64,000 nucleotides of DNA from Anaerolineae bacterium (GTDB lineage: Bacteria > Chloroflexota > Anaerolineae > UBA1429): positions 776 through 64,775 of the forward strand of contig JBMNOI010000001.1 of the NCBI GenBank assembly GCA_050942995.1. Reading direction: 5' to 3'. Below the pieces are notes generated by a model. It did no database searches and was not told the DNA's origin. It saw only the letters and a list, made by a program, of their open reading frames with translations. Shown one piece after another: positions 3,872 through 43,881 of the stretch. The translations under genes and the position numbers were made by a program. Within the stretch, counting starts at the first letter, position 1. The number at the start of each line of letters is the position of its first letter.

Positions 3872-6437
3872 TAGCCCGCCTCGCGCCTCCTTTCGCCGGG
3901 CGGTCATCGTCTTGACGCTGCTGGCCTTTGGTCTGCGGATGATCGATATCGAGGCCAGAGGCATCTGGTGGGATGAGAGCCTGAGCCTGTTCCGCGCCCG
4001 GCAGAGCATACCCTATATCCTGAGCAACCGCATCGATATCGGCGAAACCCTCACCGTCGATCAGCATCCGCCGCTCTATTTCCTGCTGCTCCACGGCGTC
4101 ATACGGCTCATGGGCGAGCGCGATCTGGCCCTGCGGTTCCCCTCGGTGCTATTCGCTACCGCCCTGGTGCCGCTACTCTATGCCATGGGCTCGCGATTGC
4201 GCAACCGGCGCGTGGGTCTGCTGGCCGCGCTATGGGGGGCGATCTCGCCGTTCTACCTCTGGTACGCCCAGGAAGCACGCATGTATACCATGGTGACGGC
4301 GCTGGGACTGGCCGCCACCTATCTGCTCTGGCGCACCTTCCAGGGCCCCAACCGGAGGCTCTCCGGGCTGGGATTCGGCATCACCGCCGCCGCAGCGCTG
4401 GCCACACACTATTTCGCCGTCCTGATTCTGGCGGTGCAGGCGATGATGGCCGTCTTTCTATGGCGTCAGCACCGCGCCGAGCTGTCGACAAGTTCGACAT
4501 CGAGCCCCACAGAGCGCCCGACGCTCCGGCGTTGGATGGCCGAACATCCCCGTGTGCTGCGGGGAGGGTTGCCGGCGGCCGTCATTCTTCTGTCGGCGAC
4601 GGGCTTTGTCGGCAACCACATAGCGCGCTTGATCCGCTCCCATGCCGCCGGACGTGTCTATGTGCCCCTTCACGACATGTTGATCGATGCTCTGAATGCG
4701 TTCAGCCTGGGGCTCACGGTATCTTTTCGAAATATGTGGCCGCTAGAGTTGATCTTTCTCGCCCTGTTCGGCCTCGGTCTATGGTGGGCATGGCGCCATC
4801 CCCATCGAGAGGAGCGCCACCGGCAATCCATCCGGGCGGCCCGCGGGGCGGCCATGATGTTGCTGCCTGGCTATTTCCTCGTGCCTATTCTGGCGTTCTG
4901 GCTCTACTCGCATTACGCCCCCGTCTATATGGGCAGTCGCTATATCATCATGTCCAGCCCGGCGTTCTATCTGGGTATGAGCCTGGGCCTCGACGCCCTC
5001 TGGTCCCGGCGTCGATGGGTCGCCGGCCTGTTGATCGCCGTGCTGGTGGCCGGGATGGGCTACTCTACCGCCCGCTATTTCACCCACGAGCACTATGAGG
5101 CCAAAGAAGATCACCGCTCGTCTGCCCTTTACGTCATGGCGAACGAGCGCCCCGGCGACGTGATCCTCCTCACGGCGCCGGAGAACATCTTTGCCTTCCG
5201 GCACTATTACCGGGGACAACTGGACATCATCCCGCTCCCTCAGCCCCCGCTAACTATCCCCGATAGTGAGGAACTGGAGCGTGAACTGGCCTCCGTCGCC
5301 CGGCACTATGATCGAATCTGGCTGGTGCATTGTCGCACCTTCTTCTCCGACCCGGAGAATCAGATCACCCAATGGCTCGACGGTCATCTACTGCCTCTGG
5401 AGCGCATCTATTTCCCCAGTTACGGTTCGGGGGTCACGGTGACCGCCTACCTCACCGATCCGCCGGAAAAGGCCGCGCCGCCAGAGGGGGCCACACCATG
5501 GGCACGCTATGATGAACGACTCGACCTGCTGCACTATACCGTCGAGTATCTGACGGCCGACGGCCACACGGCAAGCCTGCGGCCCGATGCCCTGGTCGCC
5601 GGCGACCAGACGGAGCCGGCCGTCCCCGGCGGCGCTCTGTTGCGGGTGCGCCTGACCTGGCATGTGCCGGATAGATTGCCGCCGCTCAAGGTTTCGTTAC
5701 GCTTGATCGACGAGCAGGGGATCAGTTGGACCCAGCGCGACCGCCGGCCCCTCTACTACTGGCCCACCGATACATGGCCGGTGAATACCGTCATGTATCA
5801 CGATGCCGATCTGCGCATCCCGATCGGAGCGCCCCCCGGCCTCTACCGCCTGGAGATGGTGCTCTACCACGAGAACGACGGCCGCCCCTTGGTCGCCCGA
5901 TGGCCCGATGGACAAGAGAGCGATGCGTTCCCCCTGGGCACGGTGACGATCGAGCGCACTCGTGAGAGCCTCTGGCCCGTTCCTGAGGAGATGGCGACCG
6001 AATTTGTCGAGGGAACCGTGGCCCATCAACCGGCCCCACGCTTTGGCGCGCTCCGACTGGTGGGCAGCCGGATTGGCGTCGGTGAGATGGCGCCGGGGCA
6101 AAGCACCGACATGCGGCTACACTGGCTCGCCGACGAGGATCTTGCAGGCGAGTTCACGCTGGCCGTGAATTGGGTCGATTCGGGCGGCGTCGTACGCCAC
6201 ACCGCGACCTACCCCCTGGCGGGGCCGGCAAAAAGCACCTGTACCCTGGCCGGCGGAGAGCCTCTGACGGGCATGTACCGCCTGACGGCCCCCGACGATC
6301 TCCCCCCGGATCGCTATACCCTGCGCATATCGGTGCACGACGATACAGCCGGGGCCTTTATGCGAGTACGGTACGGCCTTTTGCCCTCGATGAAACGCAG
6401 CGCCACCCTGGGGCGGGTGACCCTTCTCGAACAGTAG
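3855..6437 (+). CDS. Glycosyltransferase family 39 (ArnT/PMT_2-like) membrane protein with C-terminal repeat domains
   Basis: WWDESLSLFRARQ...DQHPPLYFLLLHGV is a typical PMT_2/ArnT N-terminal signature. Overlaps the upstream paralog by 17 bp. C-terminal repeats LRVRLTWHVP... and MRLHWLADED... Confidence 0.7.
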   Translation: MTQLVDSPPRASFRRAVIVLTLLAFGLRMIDIEARGIWWDESLSLFRARQSIPYILSNRIDIGETLTVDQHPPLYFLLLHGVIRLMGERDLALRFPSVLFATALVPLLYAMGSRLRNRRVGLLAALWGAISPFYLWYAQEARMYTMVTALGLAATYLLWRTFQGPNRRLSGLGFGITAAAALATHYFAVLILAVQAMMAVFLWRQHRAELSTSSTSSPTERPTLRRWMAEHPRVLRGGLPAAVILLSATGFVGNHIARLIRSHAAGRVYVPLHDMLIDALNAFSLGLTVSFRNMWPLELIFLALFGLGLWWAWRHPHREERHRQSIRAARGAAMMLLPGYFLVPILAFWLYSHYAPVYMGSRYIIMSSPAFYLGMSLGLDALWSRRRWVAGLLIAVLVAGMGYSTARYFTHEHYEAKEDHRSSALYVMANERPGDVILLTAPENIFAFRHYYRGQLDIIPLPQPPLTIPDSEELERELASVARHYDRIWLVHCRTFFSDPENQITQWLDGHLLPLERIYFPSYGSGVTVTAYLTDPPEKAAPPEGATPWARYDERLDLLHYTVEYLTADGHTASLRPDALVAGDQTEPAVPGGALLRVRLTWHVPDRLPPLKVSLRLIDEQGISWTQRDRRPLYYWPTDTWPVNTVMYHDADLRIPIGAPPGLYRLEMVLYHENDGRPLVARWPDGQESDAFPLGTVTIERTRESLWPVPEEMATEFVEGTVAHQPAPRFGALRLVGSRIGVGEMAPGQSTDMRLHWLADEDLAGEFTLAVNWVDSGGVVRHTATYPLAGPAKSTCTLAGGEPLTGMYRLTAPDDLPPDRYTLRISVHDDTAGAFMRVRYGLLPSMKRSATLGRVTLLEQ

Positions 6438-11150: not shown

Positions 11151-11179
11151 TTGACATATCAGAGGATTCATGATACTAT
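11151..11179 (+). promoter_or_regulatory. Sigma70-like promoter P1 (TTGACA-17-TACTAT)
   Basis: TTGACAtatcagaggattcatgaTACTAT with exact 17-nt spacer. Drives structured RNA copy 1. Confidence 0.6.
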
Positions 11180-11186
11180 GTTAGTG

Positions 11187-11486
11187 TAGAGTCTCGAGGG
11201 GTTAACGTTACGCCAGAGTACCTGTTCGGCAGGACTAGGAAGACAAGTGGGGATCTATCGGGAGATCGGTAGAAAACCATGAGTCAGTGAAAAGATAGTG
11301 GCACCACCACTGTCGGGAAGCTGGCAAGCGACTCGTCCGAGGGGAAACCCGAGGATGAAAGCGAGTCAACCGAAACGAACGAGTGGGTGCGACGAAGGTG
11401 TAATGAAGGTCACTTGAGACTCTACATCTCTCTTATTGGTGTACCGACTGTCGTATCCGGAGCGAGCCGCTGTGCACGGCTCGCTC
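11187..11486 (+). ncRNA. Structured RNA element copy 1 (riboswitch-like; cobalamin-like core, unconfirmed)
   Basis: ~200-nt core is ~95% identical to copy 2. Closing helix TGTAGAGTCTCGAG / CTTGAGACTCTACA. Motifs GGGAGATCGGTAGAAAACC and CCACTGTCGGGAAG. Ends in an intrinsic terminator. Confidence 0.5.
11449..11486 (+). terminator. Intrinsic terminator T1
   Basis: GGAGCGAGCCG-ctgtgca-CGGCTCGCTCC followed by CTTTTTAT. Confidence 0.7.
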
Positions 11487-11653
11487 CCTTTTTATACCTC
11501 CGTAACAGATAACCCCCTTCTAAAGATCTCCGCCGCAATTGGCACTGGCCACCTTCGGGAGGTGATTTGTACAGCCTCGGCCGAACTCGGCGCATTATGA
11601 ACATTATCTTTATAAATTCATCCGATAATCTATGAAATTGGCCTCAAAAGGGG

Positions 11654-11682
11654 TTGACATATCGGGGCCATTATGTTATCAT
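11654..11682 (+). promoter_or_regulatory. Sigma70-like promoter P2 (TTGACA-17-TATCAT)
   Basis: TTGACAtatcggggccattatgtTATCAT, 17-nt spacer. Drives structured RNA copy 2. Confidence 0.6.
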
Positions 11683-11689
11683 ACGGTTG

Positions 11690-12005
11690 CAGGGTCTTGA
11701 GAGATTGACGTCGCACTGGAGCGCCTGTTCGGTAGGACTAGGAAGACAAGTGGGGATCTATCGGGAGATCGGTAGAAAACCATGAGTCAGTGAAAAGATG
11801 GTGGCACCACCACTGTCGGGAAGCTGGCAAGCAAGTAGTCCGAGGGGAAACCCGAGGGTGAAAGTGAGTCAACCGAAACGAACGAGTAGGTGCGATGAAG
11901 GTGTGATGGAGGTCACTTGAGGCCCTGCGTTTTTATCGATAGCGTATCGATATGTAGTTCAGAGGGCGGGCCGCGATCGCTGATCGTGGCCCGCCCCTTT
12001 TTTTG
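11690..12005 (+). ncRNA. Structured RNA element copy 2 (riboswitch-like leader of the EEP/NYN/GNAT operon)
   Basis: Same conserved core as copy 1. Closing helix GCAGGGTCTTGAG / CTTGAGGCCCTGC has a different sequence but stays complementary, i.e. covariation. Followed by terminator T2, then the gene at 12236. Confidence 0.5.
11964..12004 (+). terminator. Intrinsic terminator T2
   Basis: GGGCGGGCC-gcgatcgctgatcgt-GGCCCGCCC followed by CTTTTTTTG. Confidence 0.75.
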
Positions 12006-20370: not shown

Positions 20371-20389
20371 AGCGACAATCGAACAGTGA

Positions 20390-20611
20390 AAGATGTAGAT
20401 CGGGAAGAGTAGCTGTCAAAGCGGGATTCAGAGAGCCGGGGTAAGGTGAGAGCCCGGTATCAGCGCAGACAACGAATGGGCCCGGGAGTCGCGCGGCCGA
20501 ACGCGCAGAGCGCTACTAGGCCGCGACGGAGTCGCCACCGTTATCAGGGCAGAGGGTATCGGTTGACCTCGTTGTGACAGAGGATCAACCCGTACCTGCA
20601 AGAGTGAGGCT
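20390..20611 (+). promoter_or_regulatory. Structured 5' leader of trpB2, T-box-like (tentative)
   Basis: ~250-nt untranslated leader. AGAGAG box, loop with UGG. Degenerate T-box-like GGCTGGCCCGCA overlaps the 5' side of the terminator. Confidence 0.35.
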
Positions 20612-20645
20612 GGCCCGCACATTAAAATCCGCCATCACGGCGGGA
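20612..20645 (+). terminator. Intrinsic terminator/attenuator in the trpB2 leader
   Basis: AAAATCCGCC-atcac-GGCGGGATTTTTTATT immediately upstream of the trpB2 RBS. Confidence 0.7.
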
Positions 20646-20821
20646 TTTTTTATTATATATGTCGGGTCGGGCTAAGAAGGGTGGCACCACGGGAGCAAAG
20701 CTCTCGTCCCTTGGGGACGAGGGCTTTTTTTATTGGCCGACACATCCCGGCGGGCCGAGAGCCATCGAATCGTAATGTTCCGGGTGTTCGGGGTGATCCG
20801 CGCAAACGAGGAGGGAAAAAG

Positions 20822-28137: not shown

Positions 28138-29364
28138 GTGGAAGAACAGGGGATTTCAGCATTGCCACTAGAAGGAGGTACGACTGCAGAGGAGTACGTC
28201 CATCCGATGTCCGAGCTCCTGGATGAAGAGTTTTCGCGGGTCGTTCCCGAACGTGGCGAGATCATCGAGGGAACTATCGTCAGCATTACTTCTTCCGAGG
28301 TCATGGTCGACATCGCCTGCAAATCCGAAGGGTTGGTGTCGTCCAGAGATCTGGAGCGTCTGGACCCAGAATATCGCCATTCTTTGAAGGTAGGCGATCG
28401 AGTTTGGGTGTACGTGGTAAGGCCCGAAGATGCCCAGGGCAATATCATCCTATCGCTCTCACGCGCCCAGATTGAGACGGACTGGCAAAAGGCTGCCGAA
28501 ATTTTCGACGCGGGAGACATTATCGAAGAGGCCGTTGTGGGTGCCAACCGCGGTGGCTTGATCGTCAATGTCGGCCGGGTGCGGGGTTTCGTGCCGGCGT
28601 CTCAGGTATACAGTGTGCGCCTTCCGGCGCAGGCCGATGATGCCGAGCGTGAGGAGCGGCTTAGCCAGGTAGTGGGCGACAAGCTCCACCTCAAGATCAT
28701 TGAGCTGGATCGCCGTCGGAATCGGCTGATCCTCTCCGAGAGGGCGGCAACGCGCGAGTGGCGACAGGCACAAAAAGAGCGCCTGTTGGATGATCTGAAG
28801 GAAGGGGACATCCGTCGGGGTGTCGTCAGCAGTCTCTGTGATTTCGGTGCTTTTGTCGATCTGGGTGGGGCCGATGGCCTCGTCCACCTATCCGAGCTAT
28901 CGTGGAGTCGCGTGGGGCATCCCAAAGAGGTGCTCAAGGTAGACCAAGAGGTCGACGTGTACGTGTTGGGCGTGGACAGAGAGCGACGCCGGATTGCGCT
29001 CAGCATCAAGCGACTCAAGCCCGAGCCCTGGAGCACGGTCACAGAGCGTTACCAGATCGGACAGGTGGTGACGGGCACCATTACCAATATCACGGACTTT
29101 GGCGCCTTTGCCCGCCTGGATGAGGACATCGAAGGTCTCATCCACATCTCCGAGCTTTCCGAGGAGCGGATCGACCATCCGAATGCAGTCGTAAAAGAAG
29201 GCGATGAGGTGACCGTCCGGATTATACGCATCGATCCCGACAGGCAGCGTATGGGATTGAGCATGCGGCGAGTCAATGATGACCCTTATTTTGAACAATA
29301 TGACTGGGAAGAGTCAGATCAACTCGCAGAACCGGAAGACTCGGCAGAGGATAGCGAAAGCTAG
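28138..29364 (+). CDS. rpsA: 30S ribosomal protein S1 (four S1 domains)
   Basis: Four repeated S1 domains (e.g. GEIIEGTIVSITSSEVMVDI, GDIIEEAVVGANRGGLIVNV, GDIRRGVVSSLCDFGAFVDL, GQVVTGTITNITDFGAFARL). Acidic C-terminus. Confidence 0.8.
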   Translation: MEEQGISALPLEGGTTAEEYVHPMSELLDEEFSRVVPERGEIIEGTIVSITSSEVMVDIACKSEGLVSSRDLERLDPEYRHSLKVGDRVWVYVVRPEDAQGNIILSLSRAQIETDWQKAAEIFDAGDIIEEAVVGANRGGLIVNVGRVRGFVPASQVYSVRLPAQADDAEREERLSQVVGDKLHLKIIELDRRRNRLILSERAATREWRQAQKERLLDDLKEGDIRRGVVSSLCDFGAFVDLGGADGLVHLSELSWSRVGHPKEVLKVDQEVDVYVLGVDRERRRIALSIKRLKPEPWSTVTERYQIGQVVTGTITNITDFGAFARLDEDIEGLIHISELSEERIDHPNAVVKEGDEVTVRIIRIDPDRQRMGLSMRRVNDDPYFEQYDWEESDQLAEPEDSAEDSES

Positions 29365-29462: not shown

Positions 29463-29799
29463 CATCTCTGGCGAGACTGTGTCCGCGGGTTGTGACGACT
29501 CGGCCGACAATTGGTCGATTCAGGCAGCCCGCCACTCAGCCATCGCTCGCTGCGGTTGTACATCGCTTGCACGTTCTGGTTGGGGGCCGGTGTGGGGGTG
29601 CACTGCCCCCTTTTTGTATTATGGCGCGTCGTTGGACAGGTGCATTGAGGCTGATTTCATCATGGAACTCTGAGCTATCATTCTACGTATATAATGTGTA
29701 GAGTATATCGTCACTCTTATTGATAGACAACAACAGCTTCTCAGCGGCTCATACAGGCAAAAGAAGCGTTCTATAGGTTGTATGAAAGCAAGGTGAATC

Positions 29800-32283
29800 A
29801 TGGCTGATAAATTTGACCGCTTTACCAAGCGCGCGCGCCAATCGCTGAGCATCGCTCAGGAGGAGGCCCGGCGACTGAACCATGCTTATATCGGCACCGA
29901 GCATCTGCTCCTCGGCTTGATGCGTGAGGAAGAGGGCATTGCTTCCCGTGTGCTTGTGGATCTGGGGCTGTCGCTGGCGCAGGTGCGTCGTGCTGTGGAG
30001 AGGATGGTCGGCCGCGGTGAACAGGCCCCAGCCAATCTGCAGCTGGCAGATCAGACCAAGCGGGTTATTGAACTGGCGGTAGAAGAGGCCAAGCGACTGG
30101 GCAACCAGTTTATCGGGACGGAGCATCTGCTCCTGGCGATTGTGCGCGTGCCCGATTCGATGGCCACGTCCATCTTGCAGAGCCTGAACGTCAACCGCGA
30201 GATTGTGCGCCGTCGCGTCATGAACCTGATGCGTCAGGATTCGACGCCGTCGAGTACCACTCAGCAGCAACGGCCACAGAGTAAAGAGAAATCGATGCTG
30301 GAGCAACTCGGCGTGGACCTGACCGAGCTCGCTCGAGCCGGACAGCTGGACCCTGTGGTGGGGCGCCAGAAAGAGATCGAACGGGTGATCCAAATCCTGG
30401 CCCGCCGCACCAAGAATAACCCGGCGCTTATCGGTGAGCCCGGCGTAGGCAAGACGGCCATCGTCGAAGGGCTGGCCCAGCGTATCATCGCCGGCCGTGT
30501 ACCGCACGACCTGCAGGGCAAGCGCGTGATTCGCCTTGATGTCGGATCGCTGGTGGCCGGGACGATGTATCGCGGGCAGTTCGAAGAGCGGCTCAAGCGC
30601 GTCATCGACGAGATCAAATCGTCGGACACGGTGCTCTTTATCGACGAGCTGCACATGCTGGTAGGCGCGGGCGCCGCCGGCAGCGCAGTAGACGCCGCCA
30701 ACATCCTCAAGCCGGCGCTGTCTCGAGGTGAACTGCAGACCATCGGCGCCACCACGCTGGATGAGTATCGCAAGCACATCGAGAGTGATGCGGCGCTGGA
30801 GCGGCGCTTCCAGCCGGTGTTTGTGGACGAGCCCTCGGTGGATGAGACCATCGCCATTCTGAGGGGCGTGCGGAACCGGTACGAGGAGCACCACCAGCTC
30901 AAGATCACTGACGAGGCCCTGGAGGCCGCGGCGCGGCTGGCCGCACGTTACGTGCCCGACCGCTTCCTGCCCGACAAGGCCATCGACCTGGTCGATGAGG
31001 CATCTTCTCGCGTGCGCGTGTTCAAGGTGCTGCACGAGGCCGAAGAGGCGTTAAAGAGCGGCCAGATGACGATGGAAGAGGGTGAGGAACTGGACGTGGA
31101 GGTGGGAGTACGGCCTCCTCAGGTTCCGTCGCTCGAGGTTGATGATGAGCTGCGCTTTATGGCCGATCAGCTCGGGCTGGATATGCCCGTGGCCGAGCCG
31201 ACCACACTGCGAGTAACGGCCGGCGACATCGCCGAGATCGTCTCCATGTGGACCGGCGTGCCGGTGGTGAACATTGCGCAGGAAGAGTCGCTGCGTCTGC
31301 TCAAGATGGAAGAAGAGCTGCACAAGCGTATCGTGGGGCAGGACGAGGGCATCAAGGCGCTGGCCAAGTCGGTCCGGCGCGCCCGTGCCGGCCTGAAGGA
31401 CCCGAACCGCCCGATCGGCTCGTTCATCTTTCTGGGACCCACCGGTGTGGGCAAGACCGAGCTGTGCAAGGCGCTGGCCGAGTTCATGTTCGGCAGCGAG
31501 GAAGCCCTGCTTCAGCTCGACATGTCCGAGTTTATGGAACGGCATAGCATCTCGCGTCTGGTGGGCGCGCCTCCGGGATATGTAGGCTATGAGGAGGCCG
31601 GCCAGTTGACCGAGGCGATCCGTCGCCGGCCGTACACGGTGGTAGTGTTCGACGAGATCGAAAAGGCCCACCCCGAGGCATTCAATATCCTCCTCCAGAT
31701 CATGGAAGAGGGACAATTGACCGACGCCAAGGGACACAAGGTGGACTTTCGTAATACCATCATCATCCTGACCTCGAACGTGGGTAGTGGGGTCATCGCC
31801 CACGATGCGTCGCTGGGCTTTTCCACACTGCCCCCCGAAGAGTCGGCCGAGGCGGACTATCGGGATATGAAGAACAAGCTGATGAAGGAACTGCGGCGGC
31901 TGTTCCGTCCCGAATTCCTGAACCGCGTGGATGAGATCGTCGTGTTCCACGAGCTGACTCGTGAGCATATCGAGCAGATCGTCGACATCCAGTTTGCCCG
32001 TCTCAACGATCGACTGGCAGAGCATCAGATCACCGTGCAGTGCACGGAAGAGGGTTGCGAGCTGCTGGTGGAAGAGGGCTTTGATCCGCAGTACGGAGCC
32101 CGTCCGCTGCGTCGAGCGATGCAGCGCCTGATCGAGGATCCGCTGGCCGAGAAGATGCTCGAGGGAGCCTTCAAGGACGGCGACACGGTGCTGGTGGATG
32201 CCGAGAACGGACATGTCGTCTTTAGATCCGTCGACAAGGCCGACGAGCCGGCCCGGTTGCTCTCCGGGGAAGAACGGCATTAA
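29800..32283 (+). CDS. clpC: ATP-dependent Clp protease ATP-binding subunit ClpC
   Basis: Two Clp_N repeats, two AAA+ modules ([18 protein letters not shown] and [18 protein letters not shown]), UVR-like middle region. 827 aa. Confidence 0.9.
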
Positions 32284-32285
32284 TT

Positions 32286-33722
32286 ATGGCAAGAGGACAC
32301 ACCCGCTTTGTTTGCCAGAATTGCGGGGCGACCCAGCCACGATGGATGGGTCGATGTCCTGAATGTAATGAGTGGAACACGATGGTTGAAACCGTAGTGG
32401 AATCTCCATCGCATTCCACTCTACTGGCTCCATCGCACGGGCATGCGCAGCCGAATCAGGCACGCCCTCTATCGGATATTCCGGCAGACGGGCACCGGCG
32501 CATGCCCGTGCCTGTGGGTGAGCTGAGCCGCGTGTTGGGCGGCGGCATTGTGCCCGGCGGCGTCACCCTGGTCGGTGGCGACCCCGGCATCGGCAAGTCC
32601 ACCCTTCTGCTTCAGCTTGCCGGCTTGATGGGCATGGACGGTGCTCCTTCGCTCTATATATCGGGTGAAGAGTCGCTGCAACAGGTCAAGCTCCGCGCCG
32701 AACGGCTGGGCATTCACTCGCCTCATCTTTATGTCCTCTCAGAGACCAGTCTGGAACAGATTCTGGCCCAGATCGAGGCCGTGCGCCCGCGACTGGCCAT
32801 CGTAGACTCGGTGCAGTCGATCTATACCGAGAACCTGACCTCGTCGGCGGGAAGTGTCAGCCAGGTCAAAGAGTGTGCCACATCGCTGCTGCGATTGGCC
32901 AAGGCCCTCGAGATTCCCGTGTTTCTGGTAGGCCATGTCACCAAGGCCGGCGCCATCGCCGGACCGAGGGTACTGGAACATATTGTAGACACGGTGCTAC
33001 AGCTCGAGGGCGAACGCTTTCACGCCTATCGCCTGCTACGCAGCGTCAAGAACCGCTTCGGCTCGACCAATGAGGTGGGTGTGTTCGAGATGTGCGAGAC
33101 GGGCATGGTCGAAGTGCCCAACCCCTCTCAGGTGTTTCTGGAGGAGCGGCTGGGGAGCGCCACCGGCTCGGCAGTTGCCGTAACCATGGAGGGCACCCGC
33201 CCCATCCTGGTAGAGATTCAGGCGCTGGTGAGCAAAGCCGGGCTGGATCATCCACGGCGCACTACCAACGGAGTGGACATGAACCGTCTGCTGCTGCTGG
33301 CCGCGGTGCTTACCAAGCGCGTGGGGCTTCGCCTGGGCGATCAGGACATCTTTGTGAATGTGGTGGGCGGACTGCGCGTACACGAGCCGGCTGTGGACCT
33401 GGCCATCGCCGCCGCCATCGCCTCCAGCTACTATAACCGCCCCGTGCCCGATGACCTGGCCATATTTGGGGAGGTGGGCCTGGCCGGAGAGCTGCGCAGC
33501 GTGGGCCAGAGCGATCGTCGCCTGCGTGAGGCGGCCAAGCTCGGATTCAAGCGCGCCCTCATGCCCCGCTTGAGAGATAAGCGAGGCATCGAATCCGGCG
33601 GCATGCAGCCCCTTACCGCCCGCTCGCTAGCCGAAGCCATGAGCATGGCCCTCGGACGCGGCGCCGGATCCGATGGACGATCACCCCGGCGGGACGAAAC
33701 GCCCGATGAGACTGAGGAATAA
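32286..33722 (+). CDS. radA: DNA repair protein RadA (Sms)
   Basis: N-terminal zinc ribbon FVCQNCGATQPRWMGRCPECNEW. RecA-like GDPGIGKSTLLLQ. KNRFG motif. Lon-like C-terminal domain. Confidence 0.9.
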   Translation: MARGHTRFVCQNCGATQPRWMGRCPECNEWNTMVETVVESPSHSTLLAPSHGHAQPNQARPLSDIPADGHRRMPVPVGELSRVLGGGIVPGGVTLVGGDPGIGKSTLLLQLAGLMGMDGAPSLYISGEESLQQVKLRAERLGIHSPHLYVLSETSLEQILAQIEAVRPRLAIVDSVQSIYTENLTSSAGSVSQVKECATSLLRLAKALEIPVFLVGHVTKAGAIAGPRVLEHIVDTVLQLEGERFHAYRLLRSVKNRFGSTNEVGVFEMCETGMVEVPNPSQVFLEERLGSATGSAVAVTMEGTRPILVEIQALVSKAGLDHPRRTTNGVDMNRLLLLAAVLTKRVGLRLGDQDIFVNVVGGLRVHEPAVDLAIAAAIASSYYNRPVPDDLAIFGEVGLAGELRSVGQSDRRLREAAKLGFKRALMPRLRDKRGIESGGMQPLTARSLAEAMSMALGRGAGSDGRSPRRDETPDETEE

Positions 33723-33756
33723 AAACTGAAAAAGGCAGATACACGGAGTAATACTC

Positions 33757-33785
33757 GTTGACAGATCCCATTCGTTATGATACTA
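33757..33785 (+). promoter_or_regulatory. Sigma70-like promoter (TTGACA-17-TACTAT) in the radA to PIN/TRAM gap
   Basis: TTGACAgatcccattcgttatgaTACTAT with exact 17-nt spacer. Confidence 0.55.
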
Positions 33786-33791
33786 TGGGCC

Positions 33792-34147
33792 TGGAAGCTG
33801 ATGATGACTCGACTCAGGTCGGCGACATCGAAAAGGTCATAGAGCGGAACCGAGTCATCGAACCCTCCCGTTTTGGTCGGTCACCTGCCACCGCATCAAG
33901 TTACTCGGACGCATACGCGTAATGGATTCCTATGGCAATGGGGCCAGAGCCGGCTTCGGATGCGATGTAACCCGGGTATACACAAGGATACGCCATGGTA
34001 TGGCCTGCCTTTCAGAGGCCCAGGCCTGTCGAACCACCGCCTGCAGGCAATGCATGTTGTACGATCTCGGAGATGGTTGCTGGCCGTTGCGTAGTTCCAG
34101 GTATTCGCTCTCTATCGGGTGTGCGGTGTGACGCACACCTTTTTTTG
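33792..34147 (+). ncRNA. Candidate non-coding RNA (~355 nt), family unknown
   Basis: Strong promoter plus strong intrinsic terminator bracket a GC-rich segment. It contains only short low-quality ORFs (73 and 69 aa). Occupies the disA slot of the Bacillus gene order. Confidence 0.35.
34118..34147 (+). terminator. Intrinsic terminator
   Basis: GGTGTGCG-gtgtga-CGCACACC followed by TTTTTTTG. Confidence 0.7.
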
Positions 34148-34383
34148 TCCGGTTTCGCACCCGTTCGTCTCGAAACGGGGGTGTTCTCGACGGCGCCACA
34201 AGATATCATCTCGAACAATCGCTGCTGCGCCCGATGTGATCGCCTGCGGGCGCAGCGGATCGCTTTTCCCGGCATATATGGCATGAGGAAAGGAGGTGCA
34301 GCTTAATCGGGTAAGGGATGCACTCTACACGGCCTACCGGGTCGGTCGTGCATCGAAAAGTCAGGATGTCAGGAGGAGCATTC

Positions 34384-35442
34384 ATGTCTGTTCATACCAT
34401 CCTGCGCCTATCAGTGACCTGTATTATCGCCCTCCTTGGCTGGAAATTGGGGCTGGTGCTCTCCAAGTGGGCCTCGCTTGCCAGGCTTCCCATCACCAGG
34501 GGGTATTATCCTTTTATTATCACACTGCTGGGCGCCATGGTCGGCTTTGTGGCCGCACCGTATCTCACCGTCGTTCCCTATCGGGCGCTGCGCCACCGTA
34601 TCCGTCATATTCCGGCGCGCGCGCTAATTATGGGTCTCATCGGCCTGTTTGTAGGCCTGGTTATCGCCGCTCTGTTCGCCCTGCCCCTCTCCATGTTGCC
34701 GGGGAGGTGGGGGTATGTTACGCCGCTGGCCGCCGCCTTTATATTTGGCGGTCTGGGCGCCATGATCATGATCATCCGTGATAAGGACATCCTCAACCTT
34801 CTGGGGTTGTTCATCGCTCGAGATGGTATTCGGGGTCGCCGCGATGTGGTGTTGCTGGATACCAGCGTCATCATCGACGGGCGTGTGGCCGACATACGCC
34901 AGACCGGCTTTATCAACGGCACCCTGTTGATTCCCCGCTTTGTACTGGACGAGCTACAGCATATCGCCGACTCGGCCGACGTATTGCGTCGCAACCGTGG
35001 CCGGCGAGGGCTGGATATCCTCAACAAGATGCAAAAGGATGACCGCATCCCCATCGAAATCATCGAGAAGGATGTGCCGGACATCCGCGAAGTCGACGGT
35101 AAACTCGTACGCCTGGCGCAGGAGTTGCATTGCCCGGTGCTCACCAACGACTATAACCTGAATCGGGTGGCCGAGTTGCAGGGCGTTCAGGTGCTCAACG
35201 TCAACGAACTGGCCAACGCCATCAAGGTGGTAGTGCTGCCGGGCGAAACGATGCGCGTGCAGATCATCCAGGAGGGCAAGGAAACAGGCCAGGGCGTGGG
35301 CTATCTGGATGACGGCACCATGGTCGTGGTAGAGGATGGCCGTCGACACATCGGTCAGAACGTCGAGGTAACGGTGACGCGGGTGCTGCAAACCGTCGCC
35401 GGCCGTATGATCTTTGGGCAGATTCAGGATGGACGAAAATAA
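34384..35442 (+). CDS. PIN/TRAM domain membrane protein (YacL-like)
   Basis: N-terminal TM helices. PIN VLLDTSVIIDGRVADI...LIPRFVLDELQHIADS. C-terminal TRAM-like VGQNVEVTVTRVLQTVAGRMIFGQ. Start among Met17/Met23 of the track ORF 34318. Confidence 0.7.
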   Translation: MSVHTILRLSVTCIIALLGWKLGLVLSKWASLARLPITRGYYPFIITLLGAMVGFVAAPYLTVVPYRALRHRIRHIPARALIMGLIGLFVGLVIAALFALPLSMLPGRWGYVTPLAAAFIFGGLGAMIMIIRDKDILNLLGLFIARDGIRGRRDVVLLDTSVIIDGRVADIRQTGFINGTLLIPRFVLDELQHIADSADVLRRNRGRRGLDILNKMQKDDRIPIEIIEKDVPDIREVDGKLVRLAQELHCPVLTNDYNLNRVAELQGVQVLNVNELANAIKVVVLPGETMRVQIIQEGKETGQGVGYLDDGTMVVVEDGRRHIGQNVEVTVTRVLQTVAGRMIFGQIQDGRK

Positions 35443-35445
35443 CGG

Positions 35446-36936
35446 ATGAAGAATCAGACGGTACGCGTACGCTATGCCCCCAGCCCCACGGGCGAGCAGC
35501 ATATCGGGGGTGTAAGAACGGCGCTGTTCAACTATCTGTTTGCGCGCCACACGGGCGGGCATCTGGTGCTGCGCGTCGAAGATACCGATGTGACACGATC
35601 GGAGCGGCGTTATGAGCAAAGCCTGTACCACGACCTGCGCTGGCTGGGGCTGAACTGGGACGAGGGGCCGGATGTGGGCGGTCCGTATGGGCCGTATCGC
35701 CAATCGGAGCGCGGCGAACTCTATCGCGAGGCCGTCATGCGCCTGCTGGACGCGGGGCAGGCTTACCTCTGCTACTGCGCGCCGGAAGAGTTGCATGCCG
35801 AGCGTCGGCGGGCCATCGCCGAGGGCCGGCCACCGCGTTACAGCGGGCGATGCCGCGATCCTCAGGTGCGTCGCGAGCTGGCCCGCCGGGGAGGCAGGCC
35901 GCTGGTACGCTATGCCACCCCCGGGGATGAGACGCTTCAGGTGGACGATCTGGTGCGTGGCCAGGTCACCTTTTCCGGCGGTGATCTGGGAGATTTCGCC
36001 ATCTATCGCGCCGATGACGACACCCTGAGCGGCGGACAGGCGCTGTATAACCTGGCCGTCGTAGTCGACGACCATGCGATGAAGATCACCCATGTGTTAC
36101 GCGGGGAGGAACACCTGCCCAATACGCCACGGCAGATGTTGCTCTATCGTGCCCTGGGTTATGAGACGCCCGCGTTCGGGCATCTCTCCCTCATCCTCGC
36201 GCCGGACGGCCACAAGATGAGCAAGCGCCAGGGCGATACATCCATCGCCCACTATCGCCGGGAGGGTTATCTGCCCGAGACGCTGCTGGCCTATATCGCA
36301 ACGCTGGGAAAGGCTCCCGGGCGAGATCCCGAACGGCTGGGCCTGGACGAGCTGGTCGAACGGTTCGATCTGCACCATCTATCGGCCAGCCCCTCGATCT
36401 ATGATCCTCGCCGGTTGGAGGCGTTCAATCGCCGCCGCATCCGAAGCGAGGATATCGAATCGCTGGGGCAGCGGCTGCGCCCCCGGCTGGAGGAAGCCTA
36501 CGGATGCTGGGAACGCGCCGCCGATACGGCACATTCCGCCGAAACGTGGTATCATATCCTGGTAGAGGCCGTGCGCGAAGAAGCCGTTACGTTGCAGGAT
36601 ATGGTAGAGATCAGCGCCTTTGCCTATGTGTCCCGCGTGACCGATTGGACGGCCGAGGCGCACGAGGCGATGGCCGACGAATGGGCACCGAAAGTGCTGG
36701 AGCACTGTCGCACCACGTTGACCGAGGACGCGCTGCGCACACCGCTCACGGCCAACGAGTTCTTTCGTGAGATGCGCCACCACTTTCGAGATACCGCGGG
36801 CATTCGCGGGCGACTGGTGATGTTTCCGATACGCGCCGCCCTCACCGGCACGCTCAAGGGACCGTGCCTGGGTATGGTCACGTCGTTGTTGGGGCGGCGG
36901 CGCTGCATCGAACGGATAGAGGATGTACTGGCGTGA
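35446..36936 (+). CDS. gltX: Glutamate--tRNA ligase
   Basis: VRYAPSPTGEQHIGGVRTALFNYLFAR (HIGH region). KMSKRQGD (KMSKS). 496 aa. Confidence 0.9.
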   Translation: MKNQTVRVRYAPSPTGEQHIGGVRTALFNYLFARHTGGHLVLRVEDTDVTRSERRYEQSLYHDLRWLGLNWDEGPDVGGPYGPYRQSERGELYREAVMRLLDAGQAYLCYCAPEELHAERRRAIAEGRPPRYSGRCRDPQVRRELARRGGRPLVRYATPGDETLQVDDLVRGQVTFSGGDLGDFAIYRADDDTLSGGQALYNLAVVVDDHAMKITHVLRGEEHLPNTPRQMLLYRALGYETPAFGHLSLILAPDGHKMSKRQGDTSIAHYRREGYLPETLLAYIATLGKAPGRDPERLGLDELVERFDLHHLSASPSIYDPRRLEAFNRRRIRSEDIESLGQRLRPRLEEAYGCWERAADTAHSAETWYHILVEAVREEAVTLQDMVEISAFAYVSRVTDWTAEAHEAMADEWAPKVLEHCRTTLTEDALRTPLTANEFFREMRHHFRDTAGIRGRLVMFPIRAALTGTLKGPCLGMVTSLLGRRRCIERIEDVLA

Positions 36937-43655: not shown

Positions 43656-43881
43656 ACAACCGAACAACGCTCGGCCGTAGACAGCAGGTGCGTATTGACG
43701 CTTAATCATCAGCCTGCCGAGGCAGAGATCACGGGTTGCCCCTAAATAGCCGGAGAATCGAGCGAGGCGACCCGGCTTGAGGTAGATATTCCTAATTCAG
43801 GAACATGCCCCAATGAGATCTTTGCGTCGGTATGGCGCAAAGATCTTTTTTTTCATCTTACCGGAAGGAGGTGAGACGCTC
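43656..43881 (+). promoter_or_regulatory. rplJ-rplL leader region (L10 autoregulatory leader candidate)
   Basis: ~225-nt untranslated region between rplA and rplJ, the position of the L10 leader in other bacteria. Structure not verified. Confidence 0.35.

What the first reader, a model, noticed from the sequence alone, without database searches (positions are those of the whole stretch)
33757..34147. Promoter-to-terminator unit with no coding potential in the radA / PIN-TRAM gap (candidate ~355-nt sRNA)
The 660-bp gap between radA and the YacL-like gene is unusually long for this compact genome. It contains a perfect TTGACA-17-TACTAT promoter (33757-33785) and a strong GC hairpin plus T7 terminator (34118-34147). 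Between them are only short low-complexity ORFs (73 and 69 aa, Arg/Trp/His-rich, typical GC-frame noise). The unit sits where disA lies in the Bacillus radA-disA-yacL order. I checked by eye for RNase P (no GGAAAGTCCGG), SRP RNA (no GGAAGCAGC) and tmRNA (no tRNA-like end) and found no match.
Basis: seen in the sequence. Interest (0 to 1): 0.6.

Follow-up and report, generated by a model that had tools for sequence, protein, structure and literature searches.

The report
PIN–TRAM operon leader with attenuator hairpin
The promoter-to-terminator unit is real and non-coding, but related genomes indicate it is most likely the long 5' leader and transcription-attenuator hairpin of the downstream PIN–TRAM RNase gene, not a free-standing small-RNA gene.

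Summary
A strong sigma-70 promoter (33758-33786, TG-extended -10) and a strong intrinsic terminator (stem 34117-34140, T7) bracket about 324 nt with no coding signal, no protein or Pfam homolog, no Rfam match and no tRNA or tmRNA.

The stand-alone sRNA reading is not favoured. The body is less folded than shuffled sequence (z +1.15). Bona fide RNAs in the same window score -3.6 to -8.7. The body is specific to this species.

The terminator hairpin (RGUGWRY-loop-RYWCACY plus U-run) recurs upstream of PIN–TRAM genes in eight Anaerolineae lineages. It is fully base-paired in all eight, shows compensatory changes, and is almost absent elsewhere in 1.55 Mb of related loci. In at least six lineages besides the window, a strong promoter lies about 100-190 nt upstream of it, whatever the upstream gene is. 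In three lineages the U-run ends 21-44 nt before the start codon. PIN–TRAM must therefore be transcribed through the hairpin.

The unit is therefore best read as promoter, lineage-specific leader and conserved attenuator of the PIN–TRAM/gltX/cysS operon. The roughly 355-nt RNA would be the terminated leader. There is no transcript evidence, and the regulatory signal is unknown. Interest is modest.

The parts
33758..33786 (+). Sigma-70 promoter: TTGACA, 17-nt spacer, TACTAT, with a TG-extended -10 (ATGATACTAT).
   Evidence: It is one of 18 strong sites against 2.4 expected in the window. The style matches the promoters in front of the T-box, the tRNA genes and the two ncRNA units at 11.1-12.0 kb.
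33793..33793 (+). Predicted transcription start (a G, 7 nt after the -10 hexamer). This is inferred, not shown.
   Evidence: Read from the sequence. One metagenome contig (L071) happens to begin at exactly this base. Other contig ends are scattered, so this is treated as coincidence.
33793..34116 (+). Leader body, about 324 nt. It is non-coding, not more folded than shuffles, and specific to this species.
   Evidence: z = +1.15. No coding signal. No protein homolog in any of the six frames. No Pfam match. No Rfam match. No tandem repeats. No copy elsewhere in the window, in phages or in plasmids. Not alignable to relatives.
34117..34146 (+). Conserved attenuator/terminator hairpin GGGUGUGCG-GUGUGA-CGCACACCU (34117-34140) followed by a run of seven U (34140-34146).
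   Evidence: The motif RGUGWRY..RYWCACY plus U-run lies upstream of PIN–TRAM in eight lineages and is nearly absent elsewhere. All stems are canonical, with compensatory changes.
34147..34287 (+). Spacer after the terminator. It contains two further hairpins, roughly 34158-34186 and 34224-34256. No promoter was detected here.
   Evidence: L005 has only about 20 nt at this position.
34288..34296 (+). SD-like box GAAAGGAGG with no start codon after it. It marks the start of a roughly 95-nt proximal leader conserved in the closest clade.
   Evidence: Present in the window, L002, L004, L005, L012, L074 and L079, about 75-110 nt before the ATG.
34350..34354 (+). GCAUC, an instance of the 'GCAU(U/C)' box found 12-60 nt upstream of PIN–TRAM start codons.
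   Evidence: present in 14 of 38 distinct upstream regions, against 3 and 1 in the two controls.
34371..34386 (+). Shine-Dalgarno AGGAGG and the ATG of the PIN–TRAM gene.
   Evidence: duplex energy -10.3 kcal/mol. Gene callers on 8 contigs chose this start.
34384..35442 (+). PIN–TRAM membrane protein gene (COG4956 / YacL-like), the first gene of the PIN–TRAM, gltX, cysS, SpoU-methylase run.
   Evidence: The class is described as 'function unknown' in PMC5499597.

Best explanation
The unit is the promoter and 5' leader of the PIN–TRAM (yacL-like) operon. RNA polymerase starts at about 33793, transcribes a roughly 324-nt species-specific leader and meets a conserved intrinsic-terminator hairpin (34117-34146). 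Most transcripts stop there and give a roughly 355-nt terminated leader RNA. The fraction that reads through continues across a second, proximal leader (SD-like GAAAGGAGG box, GCAU box) into PIN–TRAM, gltX and cysS. The hairpin therefore acts as an attenuator that sets, or possibly regulates, expression of the RNase gene. It also stops transcripts coming from clpC-radA.

Shown: the promoter and terminator are real by sequence statistics. The hairpin is conserved with PIN–TRAM. In three relatives the gene can only be transcribed through the hairpin.

Inferred: the same holds in this genome, and read-through occurs. Whether read-through is regulated, and by what, is unknown. No antiterminator is visible here.
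For: Promoter and terminator are far above chance.

No other promoter matching at least 9 of 12 positions lies anywhere in 32000-36000 on either strand. PIN–TRAM and gltX therefore have no other recognisable consensus promoter.

The hairpin motif plus U-run lies 41-266 nt upstream of PIN–TRAM, on the same strand, in 8 distinct lineages. Only 3 other instances occur in 1.55 Mb of loci searched on both strands. It is the only instance with a U-run in the 64-kb window.

Across the eight stems, all pairs are canonical, GUG:CAC is invariant, compensatory double changes occur at four or more positions, and G·U pairs are present. This argues for an RNA element rather than a DNA element.

The same order, promoter then roughly 100-190 nt leader then hairpin then PIN–TRAM, is seen in L011, L086, L092, L009, L085 and L089. 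The upstream neighbour differs among them: radA, clpC, a divergent response regulator, or another gene.

The U-run ends 21-44 nt before the ATG in L086, L092 and L009. That leaves no room for a promoter.

L092 and L009 carry a significant, covarying antiterminator: dG about -20 kcal/mol, p<=0.003.

The body lacks the marks of a structured or conserved sRNA.
Against: No transcript data are available.

The window shows no antiterminator (best partner p=0.47). Regulation here is therefore unproven, and the hairpin looks like an efficient constitutive terminator.

The hairpin is 237 nt from the ATG here, against 21-120 nt in relatives. A weak, non-consensus promoter downstream of it cannot be excluded.

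The leader bodies are not alignable between lineages, and this one is about twice as long.

The closest relatives by protein identity (L002-L004, L074-L080) lack both hairpin and leader. They join radA and PIN–TRAM with about 85-230 nt.

The essential genes gltX and cysS lie downstream of a strong terminator, which is awkward.
Confidence: 0.55

Rival explanations
1. Stand-alone trans-acting sRNA gene. A roughly 355-nt RNA is made from its own promoter and ended by its own terminator. It acts by base pairing on other mRNAs, for example through the single-stranded CCCUCCC stretch at 33863-33869 on Shine-Dalgarno sequences. A variant of this view is that the terminated leader has such a second job.
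For: There is a strong promoter and a strong terminator. The terminator lies 237 nt from the next ATG. The same window holds two clear promoter-ncRNA-terminator genes with the same promoter style. A 24/28-nt stretch is complementary to clpC mRNA at 31215-31241 (E 0.035).
Against: The body is less folded than shuffled sequence (z +1.15). The two real ncRNA units score -6.9 and -8.7, and the T-box scores -3.6. There is no sequence conservation outside this species, and all nine other contigs from this species (L065-L073) are 100% identical over the stretch they cover, so nothing can be learned from covariation. The terminator and the overall architecture travel with PIN–TRAM, not as a free gene. 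The clpC complementarity is within chance once the number of things examined is counted.
Confidence: 0.2
2. The body has no dedicated function. The hairpin is simply the terminator of the clpC-radA operon. The 324-nt body is lineage-specific filler DNA, and the promoter is fortuitous or only a plain promoter for the downstream operon.
For: The body is unstructured, unconserved and absent from the closest relatives. In L005 the near-identical hairpin sits about 65 nt after the radA stop. The hairpin lies downstream of radA or clpC in the window, L005, L011 and L086.
Against: In L009 the upstream gene is divergent, so the hairpin can only terminate transcripts from the leader's own promoter. In every case with a promoter, the promoter lies between the upstream stop codon and the hairpin. 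A generic terminator would not keep GUG:CAC and the motif across lineages whose flanking sequence is unalignable. The promoter is a top-class match for this genome.
Confidence: 0.15
3. RNA inhibitor or decoy of the nuclease, resembling a type III toxin-antitoxin system. In this view the abundant terminated leader binds the PIN–TRAM RNase or is cut by it, and the hairpin sets the RNA-to-protein ratio.
For: The order promoter, non-coding RNA, terminator, RNase gene is that of ToxIN-type loci (from my own knowledge). L009 and L092 leaders are rich in UCAU repeats.
Against: There are no tandem repeats in the window's leader. PIN–TRAM (COG4956) is a broadly conserved membrane protein of housekeeping type sitting in a translation-gene cluster, not a mobile toxin. 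Part of the UCAU signal in L092 and L009 is explained by a conserved helix.
Confidence: 0.05
4. A small protein is encoded in the gap: the 54-aa ORF at 33758-33922 (GGAG 9 nt before a TTG start), or the 69-aa or 73-aa ORF.
For: The 54-aa ORF has a weak SD (-6.1 kcal/mol) and the least negative codon score, +0.09.
Against: Its start lies in the -35 hexamer, upstream of the predicted transcription start. GC3 is 0.53-0.61 against 0.72 in real genes. Six-frame translations find no homolog among 5.8 billion protein clusters at E<=1, and there is no Pfam match. No gene caller called a gene there on any contig. The 69-aa and 73-aa ORFs have no SD.
Confidence: 0.03

Closest known systems
Transcription-attenuation leaders with an intrinsic terminator (T-box, ribosomal-protein leaders, riboswitch expression platforms)
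   Same: The order is the same: promoter, non-coding leader, GC-rich hairpin plus U-run, then the gene on the same strand. The terminator is conserved together with the downstream gene across genomes. Two relatives (L092, L009) have a covarying antiterminator. The window's own T-box (20387-20714) and L10 leader (43657-43860) show the same layout.
   Different: No known aptamer or family matches. The leader body is neither conserved nor notably folded. No antiterminator is visible in this genome. The terminator lies 237 nt from the ATG rather than the tens of nt seen for the window's T-box and L10 leader. The sensed signal, if there is one, is unknown.
Intergenic sRNA genes, and sRNAs that share a terminator with the upstream mRNA (3'UTR-type sRNAs such as MicL and DapZ; from my own knowledge)
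   Same: It has its own promoter just after the radA stop codon. It shares its terminator with clpC-radA transcripts. The discrete product would be about 355 nt.
   Different: There is no conserved seed or structure. The unit tracks the downstream gene, not the upstream one. It is found also where the upstream gene is divergent (L009).
Type III toxin-antitoxin loci (ToxIN; from my own knowledge)
   Same: A promoter, a non-coding RNA, a terminator, then an RNase gene expressed by read-through.
   Different: There are no tandem repeats. The RNase is a conserved membrane PIN–TRAM protein in a housekeeping gene cluster.
5' SD-like mRNA stabiliser (STAB-SD, GAAAGGAGG, of Bacillus thuringiensis cryIIIA; from my own knowledge)
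   Same: The identical 9-mer GAAAGGAGG lies in the 5' untranslated region, with no start codon after it, about 75-110 nt before the PIN–TRAM ATG in the window and its closest clade.
   Different: This concerns the proximal leader at 34288-34296, not the flagged unit. A stabiliser function was not tested. In this genome the box does not lie at a mapped 5' end.

Membership tests
Stand-alone trans-acting sRNA gene | Own promoter and own intrinsic terminator in an intergenic region | tested here: met
Stand-alone trans-acting sRNA gene | Conserved sequence or structure of the RNA body, or folding energy beyond that of shuffles | tested here: not met
   z is +0.4 for the whole unit and +1.15 for the body. 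There is no homolog in 137 related loci. Copies within the species are identical.
Stand-alone trans-acting sRNA gene | Unit is independent of the flanking gene | tested here: not met
   The hairpin and the promoter-leader layout co-occur with PIN–TRAM whatever the upstream gene is.
Stand-alone trans-acting sRNA gene | A discrete stable transcript and trans targets | not testable with these tools
   No expression data. Contig ends are uninformative.
Transcription-attenuation leader | Promoter, then an intrinsic terminator, then the ORF, all on one strand | tested here: met
   Promoter 33758-33786, terminator 34117-34146, ATG at 34384.
Transcription-attenuation leader | Terminator element conserved with the regulated gene across genomes | tested here: met
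   Eight lineages carry it, and it is nearly absent elsewhere. Compensatory changes are present.
Transcription-attenuation leader | The gene depends on read-through, with no promoter between terminator and ORF | tested here: inconclusive
   No site matching at least 9 of 12 positions lies in 34147-34383, but 237 nt are available there. In L086, L092 and L009 only 21-44 nt are available, so read-through is obligatory in those lineages.
Transcription-attenuation leader | An alternative antiterminator pairing | tested here: not met
   In the window the best partner of the 5' arm gives -12.8 kcal/mol, p=0.47. The feature is met in L092 and L009 (-20 kcal/mol, p<=0.003).
Known Rfam families (RNase P, tmRNA, SRP, 6S, T-box, riboswitches and others) | Covariance-model score at or near the family's gathering threshold | tested here: not met
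   Nothing in the gap at the gathering threshold. At E<=10 the only match is a 15-bit rdlD hit, which is noise. ARAGORN finds nothing. The relatives' leaders also have no match.
Type III toxin-antitoxin | Tandem direct repeats in the RNA upstream of the toxin gene | tested here: not met
   TRF returns 0 rows at minimum score 30. There are no direct repeats beyond 10-12-nt chance matches.
disA pseudogene or other gene remnant | Residual protein similarity in any reading frame | tested here: not met
   Six-frame query against 5.8 billion protein clusters gave no hit at E<=1. Pfam at E<=10 gave no hit.
Mobile element or MITE insertion | Further copies, terminal inverted repeats, or matches in mobile DNA | tested here: inconclusive
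   No second copy in the 64-kb window. No phage or plasmid match. One 14-nt imperfect inverted repeat, 33860 with 34173. The rest of the genome could not be searched.

The most novel reading that the evidence does not exclude
The GUG..CAC hairpin plus its promoter-proximal leader may be a new class of cis-regulatory RNA dedicated to the uncharacterised COG4956 PIN–TRAM membrane RNases. The hairpin's arms resemble a Shine-Dalgarno / anti-Shine-Dalgarno pair: AGGUGAG with CUCACCU-UUU. The nuclease itself, or free 30S subunits, might therefore recognise it and tune read-through. The abundant terminated leader could also act as a decoy for the enzyme.
Probability: 0.12. Interest if true: 0.6.

Novelty: new member of a known kind. 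Interest (0 to 1): 0.33.

Why it matters
As an sRNA candidate the finding is weak. It is an orphan sequence with no excess structure.

What makes it worth recording is the hairpin. It is a terminator whose sequence is conserved with compensatory changes, and it lies specifically in front of PIN–TRAM (YacL-type, COG4956) genes in several Anaerolineae. It is usually fed by a strong dedicated promoter, and it matches no Rfam family.

The PIN–TRAM protein family is widespread and its function is unknown (PMC5499597). A dedicated attenuator would be the first hint of how, and perhaps why, its expression is held down. It would also give a handle for experiments, such as read-through assays with or without the protein or ribosomes.

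It is also a cautionary case for genome scans. A promoter plus a terminator plus no ORF does not make an sRNA gene.

Tried and rejected
- **Known RNA families.** Rfam at the gathering threshold and at E<=10 found none. ARAGORN found no tRNA or tmRNA. The T-box idea, prompted by gltX and cysS downstream, was rejected because the T-box model finds the real T-box at 20387 but nothing here.
- **Coding potential.** Codon and GC3 scoring of every ORF in the gap was negative. An SD-plus-start scan found only the 54-aa ORF that begins inside the -35 hexamer. Pfam on the ORFs and on all six frames gave nothing. A concatenated six-frame query against 5.8 billion protein clusters gave nothing at E<=1. 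Neither a disA remnant nor any other gene remnant is therefore supported.
- **Repeat or mobile-element origin.** BLAST of the gap against the window, phages and plasmids, plus TRF, gave nothing.
- **Orthologous conservation.** blastn and nhmmer of the gap against 137 related loci hit only the L005 terminator. Copies within the species are 100% identical, so covariation on the body is impossible.
- **Relation to the two ncRNA units at 11.1-12.0 kb.** Only the promoters resemble each other, and that resemblance is the genome-wide extended -10 pattern.
- **Contig ends as proxies for transcript ends.** L071 starts at exactly 33793, but other contig ends are scattered. This was rejected as evidence.
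- **Antiterminator search in the window.** Not significant.
- **Covariance model of the hairpin.** Abandoned because MAFFT cannot register both arms when loop lengths vary. A descriptor search and a hand-registered pair table were used instead.
- **Literature on YacL / PIN–TRAM.** Only 'function unknown' was found.

Full report
**1. What is in the sequence**

The window comes from an Anaerolineae (Chloroflexota) genome. The same DNA is on GCA_012841665.1 contig DUUH01000430.1 and on contigs from several other samples.

radA ends at 33722. The PIN–TRAM gene (PF27675/PIN/TRAM, 352 aa) starts at 34384, behind a strong Shine-Dalgarno sequence. The gap between them is therefore 661 bp.

The gap contains the promoter TTGACA-17-TACTAT at 33758-33786, with TG before the -10. 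It also contains a 9-bp GC-rich hairpin at 34117-34140 followed by seven T. The hairpin energy is -17 kcal/mol, z -3.0.

Both signals are well above chance for this genome:
- Promoter sites matching at least 10 of 12 positions number 18 in 64 kb, against 2.4 expected. Several sit directly in front of the T-box and the tRNA genes.
- They share an extended -10 pattern, ATGnTAnnnT, which this site also carries.
- Strong hairpin-plus-T-run sites number 11, against 0.67 expected. They include the T-box and L10-leader terminators.

Transcription from about 33793 to about 34146 would give an RNA of roughly 355 nt.

**2. It is non-coding and matches nothing known**

- Every ORF in the gap has GC3 of 0.53-0.61, against 0.72 in real genes, and a low or negative codon score.
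- Only one ORF has a marginal SD. It is 54 aa, and its TTG start lies inside the -35 hexamer, upstream of the predicted transcription start.
- No gene caller placed a gene here on any contig.
- Pfam finds nothing in the ORFs or in the six full frames.
- A concatenated six-frame query against 5.8 billion protein clusters found nothing at E<=1. A disA or other gene remnant is therefore unsupported.
- Rfam gives nothing at the gathering threshold, and only a 15-bit noise hit at E<=10.
- ARAGORN finds no tRNA or tmRNA.
- There are no tandem repeats, no second copy in the window and no phage or plasmid match.

**3. The body does not look like a structured or conserved RNA**

The minimum free energy of the whole unit equals that of dinucleotide shuffles (z -0.01 and +0.42). 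The 324-nt body is less stable than shuffles (z +1.15). No 100-nt window inside the body stands out.

The same window offers internal controls:
- The T-box leader scores z -3.6.
- Two tandem promoter-ncRNA-terminator units at 11.1-12.0 kb score -6.9 and -8.7.

Nine other contigs from this species, from other samples, are 100% identical over the part of 33400-34600 that each covers. The next relatives in the genome and metagenome collections share only 66-74% identity in PIN–TRAM. None of the 137 related loci has any similarity to the body.

Relatives that keep the clpC-radA-PIN–TRAM order have only about 20-230 nt between radA and PIN–TRAM. The body is therefore specific to this species.

**4. 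The terminator is a conserved element of PIN–TRAM upstream regions**

The one similarity found was the hairpin of L005: GGUGUGCG..CGCACACC-UUUUU, between radA and PIN–TRAM.

I mapped promoters and terminators in the 450 nt upstream of PIN–TRAM in all distinct loci. The same kind of hairpin turned up in other lineages. A descriptor search (RGTGWRY, a loop, a pairing 7-mer, then a T-run) gave these results:
- It finds the hairpin in 8 of 83 distinct upstream regions: the window, L005, L011, L092 (identical to L017 and L093), L009, L086, L085 and L089.
- All are on the gene's strand, 41-266 nt before the start codon.
- Only three other instances occur in 1.55 Mb of loci searched on both strands.
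- It is the only instance with a T-run in the 64-kb window.

In a hand-registered table all stems are fully canonical, and GUG:CAC next to the U-run is invariant. Positions -1, +3, +4 and +5 switch between G:C, A:U and U:A by double changes. Several G·U pairs occur. This points to an RNA hairpin under selection, not a DNA palindrome.

**5. The hairpin comes with a promoter and belongs to the downstream gene**

In L011, L086, L092, L009, L085 and L089 (and, with weaker hairpins, L016 and L063/L132), a strong TG-extended promoter lies upstream of the hairpin. It leaves a leader of about 100-190 nt.

The upstream neighbour differs between lineages:

| Lineage | Upstream neighbour |
|---|---|
| Window, L005, L011 | radA |
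| L086 | clpC |
| L009 | a divergently transcribed response-regulator gene |
| L092, L016 | other genes |

L011 repeats the window's layout exactly: radA stop, 56 nt, promoter, about 165 nt of leader, hairpin, 63 nt, then ATG.

In L086, L092 and L009 the U-run ends 21, 37 and 44 nt before the ATG, and that stretch includes the SD. No promoter fits there, so the gene must be transcribed through the hairpin.

L092 and L009 also have a segment near the leader's 5' end that pairs with the terminator's 5' arm. The duplex energy is about -20 kcal/mol, p<=0.003 against shuffles. A G:C to A:U change is matched in all three partners. This is the classical terminator/antiterminator arrangement.

Neither Rfam search finds a known family in these leaders.

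**6. Best reading for the window**

By position, by the conserved hairpin and by the shared layout, the flagged unit is this genome's version of the PIN–TRAM leader module.

No other promoter matching at least 9 of 12 positions exists between 32000 and 36000. The promoter at 33758, together with transcripts arriving from clpC-radA, is therefore the only recognisable consensus-type source of transcription for PIN–TRAM and gltX, and probably also for cysS, which follows gltX after 72 nt.

The roughly 355-nt RNA would be the terminated leader.

Differences from the relatives, which also count against this reading:
- The leader is twice as long and unstructured.
- No antiterminator is detectable (p=0.47).
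- The hairpin lies 237 nt from the ATG.

That distance is occupied by two further hairpins and by a roughly 95-nt proximal leader that is conserved in the closest clade. The proximal leader has three parts: an SD-like GAAAGGAGG box at 34288-34296, a small hairpin, and a GCAU box.

The closest relatives by protein identity (L002-L004, L074-L080) lack the hairpin altogether. The module is therefore patchy in its distribution.

I put the leader/attenuator reading at 0.55. The others are: stand-alone or dual-function sRNA 0.20; plain upstream-operon terminator plus filler 0.15; type III-like RNA decoy 0.05; small protein 0.03.

**7. Comparison with known systems and novelty**

The unit works like a transcription-attenuation leader, but it is not a member of any described family.

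PIN–TRAM proteins of this architecture (COG4956: four N-terminal transmembrane helices, PIN, TRAM) are listed as 'function unknown' in the PIN superfamily catalogue (PMC5499597). I found no paper on their regulation.

The conserved hairpin is thus a candidate new cis-regulatory motif of a known kind. As a trans-acting sRNA the finding is weak. Overall interest is modest.

**8. Limits**

- No expression data are available.
- The hairpin family rests on eight lineages, all drawn from loci centred on PIN–TRAM. The rest of those loci served as background.
- Promoter calls are consensus matches.
- The rest of this genome could not be searched for copies of the body.

Noticed in passing
window 11151-11495 and 11654-12005 (+ strand): Two tandem promoter-ncRNA-terminator units share a near-identical core of about 215 nt. 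Their MFE z-scores are -6.9 and -8.7. RNAalifold predicts 78 pairs, none of them broken by the differences between the two copies (4 compensatory double changes, 11 one-sided G·U-type changes). There is no Rfam match at the gathering threshold or at E<=10. This looks like a duplicated structured RNA gene of an undescribed family, and it is probably more interesting than the flagged unit.
   Followed up: partly
window 34288-34296; L002, L004, L005, L012, L074 and L079 at about -75 to -110 from the PIN–TRAM ATG: A conserved SD-like box (G)AAAGGAGG with no start codon after it, followed by a small hairpin. It is the same 9-mer as the STAB-SD mRNA stabiliser of B. thuringiensis cryIIIA (from my own knowledge). 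In L083 a GGAGG sits right at the predicted transcript 5' end.
   Followed up: partly
window 34350-34354; 14 of 38 distinct PIN–TRAM upstream regions, at -60 to -12: A GCAU(U/C) box, often YGCAUUUAU or GGCGCAUUG, is enriched just upstream of the PIN–TRAM ribosome-binding site across Anaerolineae and Limnocylindria. It occurs in 14 of 38 regions, against 3 and 1 in the two controls, with a peak at -40 to -21. A 10-nt exact repeat of its surroundings (CATCGAAAAG) also occurs near the 5' end of the long leader, at 33826.
   Followed up: partly
L092 683-696 with 838-849; L009 3770-3782 with 3926-3938: A terminator/antiterminator pair with three-way covariation lies in the PIN–TRAM leaders of two related lineages. 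A conserved 11-bp helix UUCAUACACGCC / GGYGGUAUGAA is also present. These two leaders are the best starting point for defining the RNA element.
   Followed up: partly
window 34061-34088 with 31215-31241: The leader has 24 of 28 nt complementary to the coding region of clpC mRNA, the first gene of the upstream operon (blastn E 0.035 within the window). This is probably chance.
   Followed up: no
L071 base 1 = window 33793: A 3001-nt JGI contig (3300060804, Ga0591959_0050786) begins at exactly the predicted transcription start and runs through the terminator into gltX. If that sample were a metatranscriptome, this would be direct evidence for the start site and for read-through. The sample type could not be checked, and other contig ends are scattered.
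   Followed up: partly
whole window: This organism's strong promoters follow TTGAC(A/G/C)-17-(A)TGnTAnnnT. Strong promoters number 18 against 2.4 expected, and strong intrinsic terminators 11 against 0.67 expected. Simple consensus scans are therefore unusually informative in this genome.
   Followed up: yes
window 29594-29610 (+ strand): A terminator-like hairpin, GGGGGTG..CCCCC-TTTTT, lies about 190 nt upstream of clpC, in the 435-bp gap after the gene that ends at 29364. No strong promoter was found for clpC itself.
   Followed up: no
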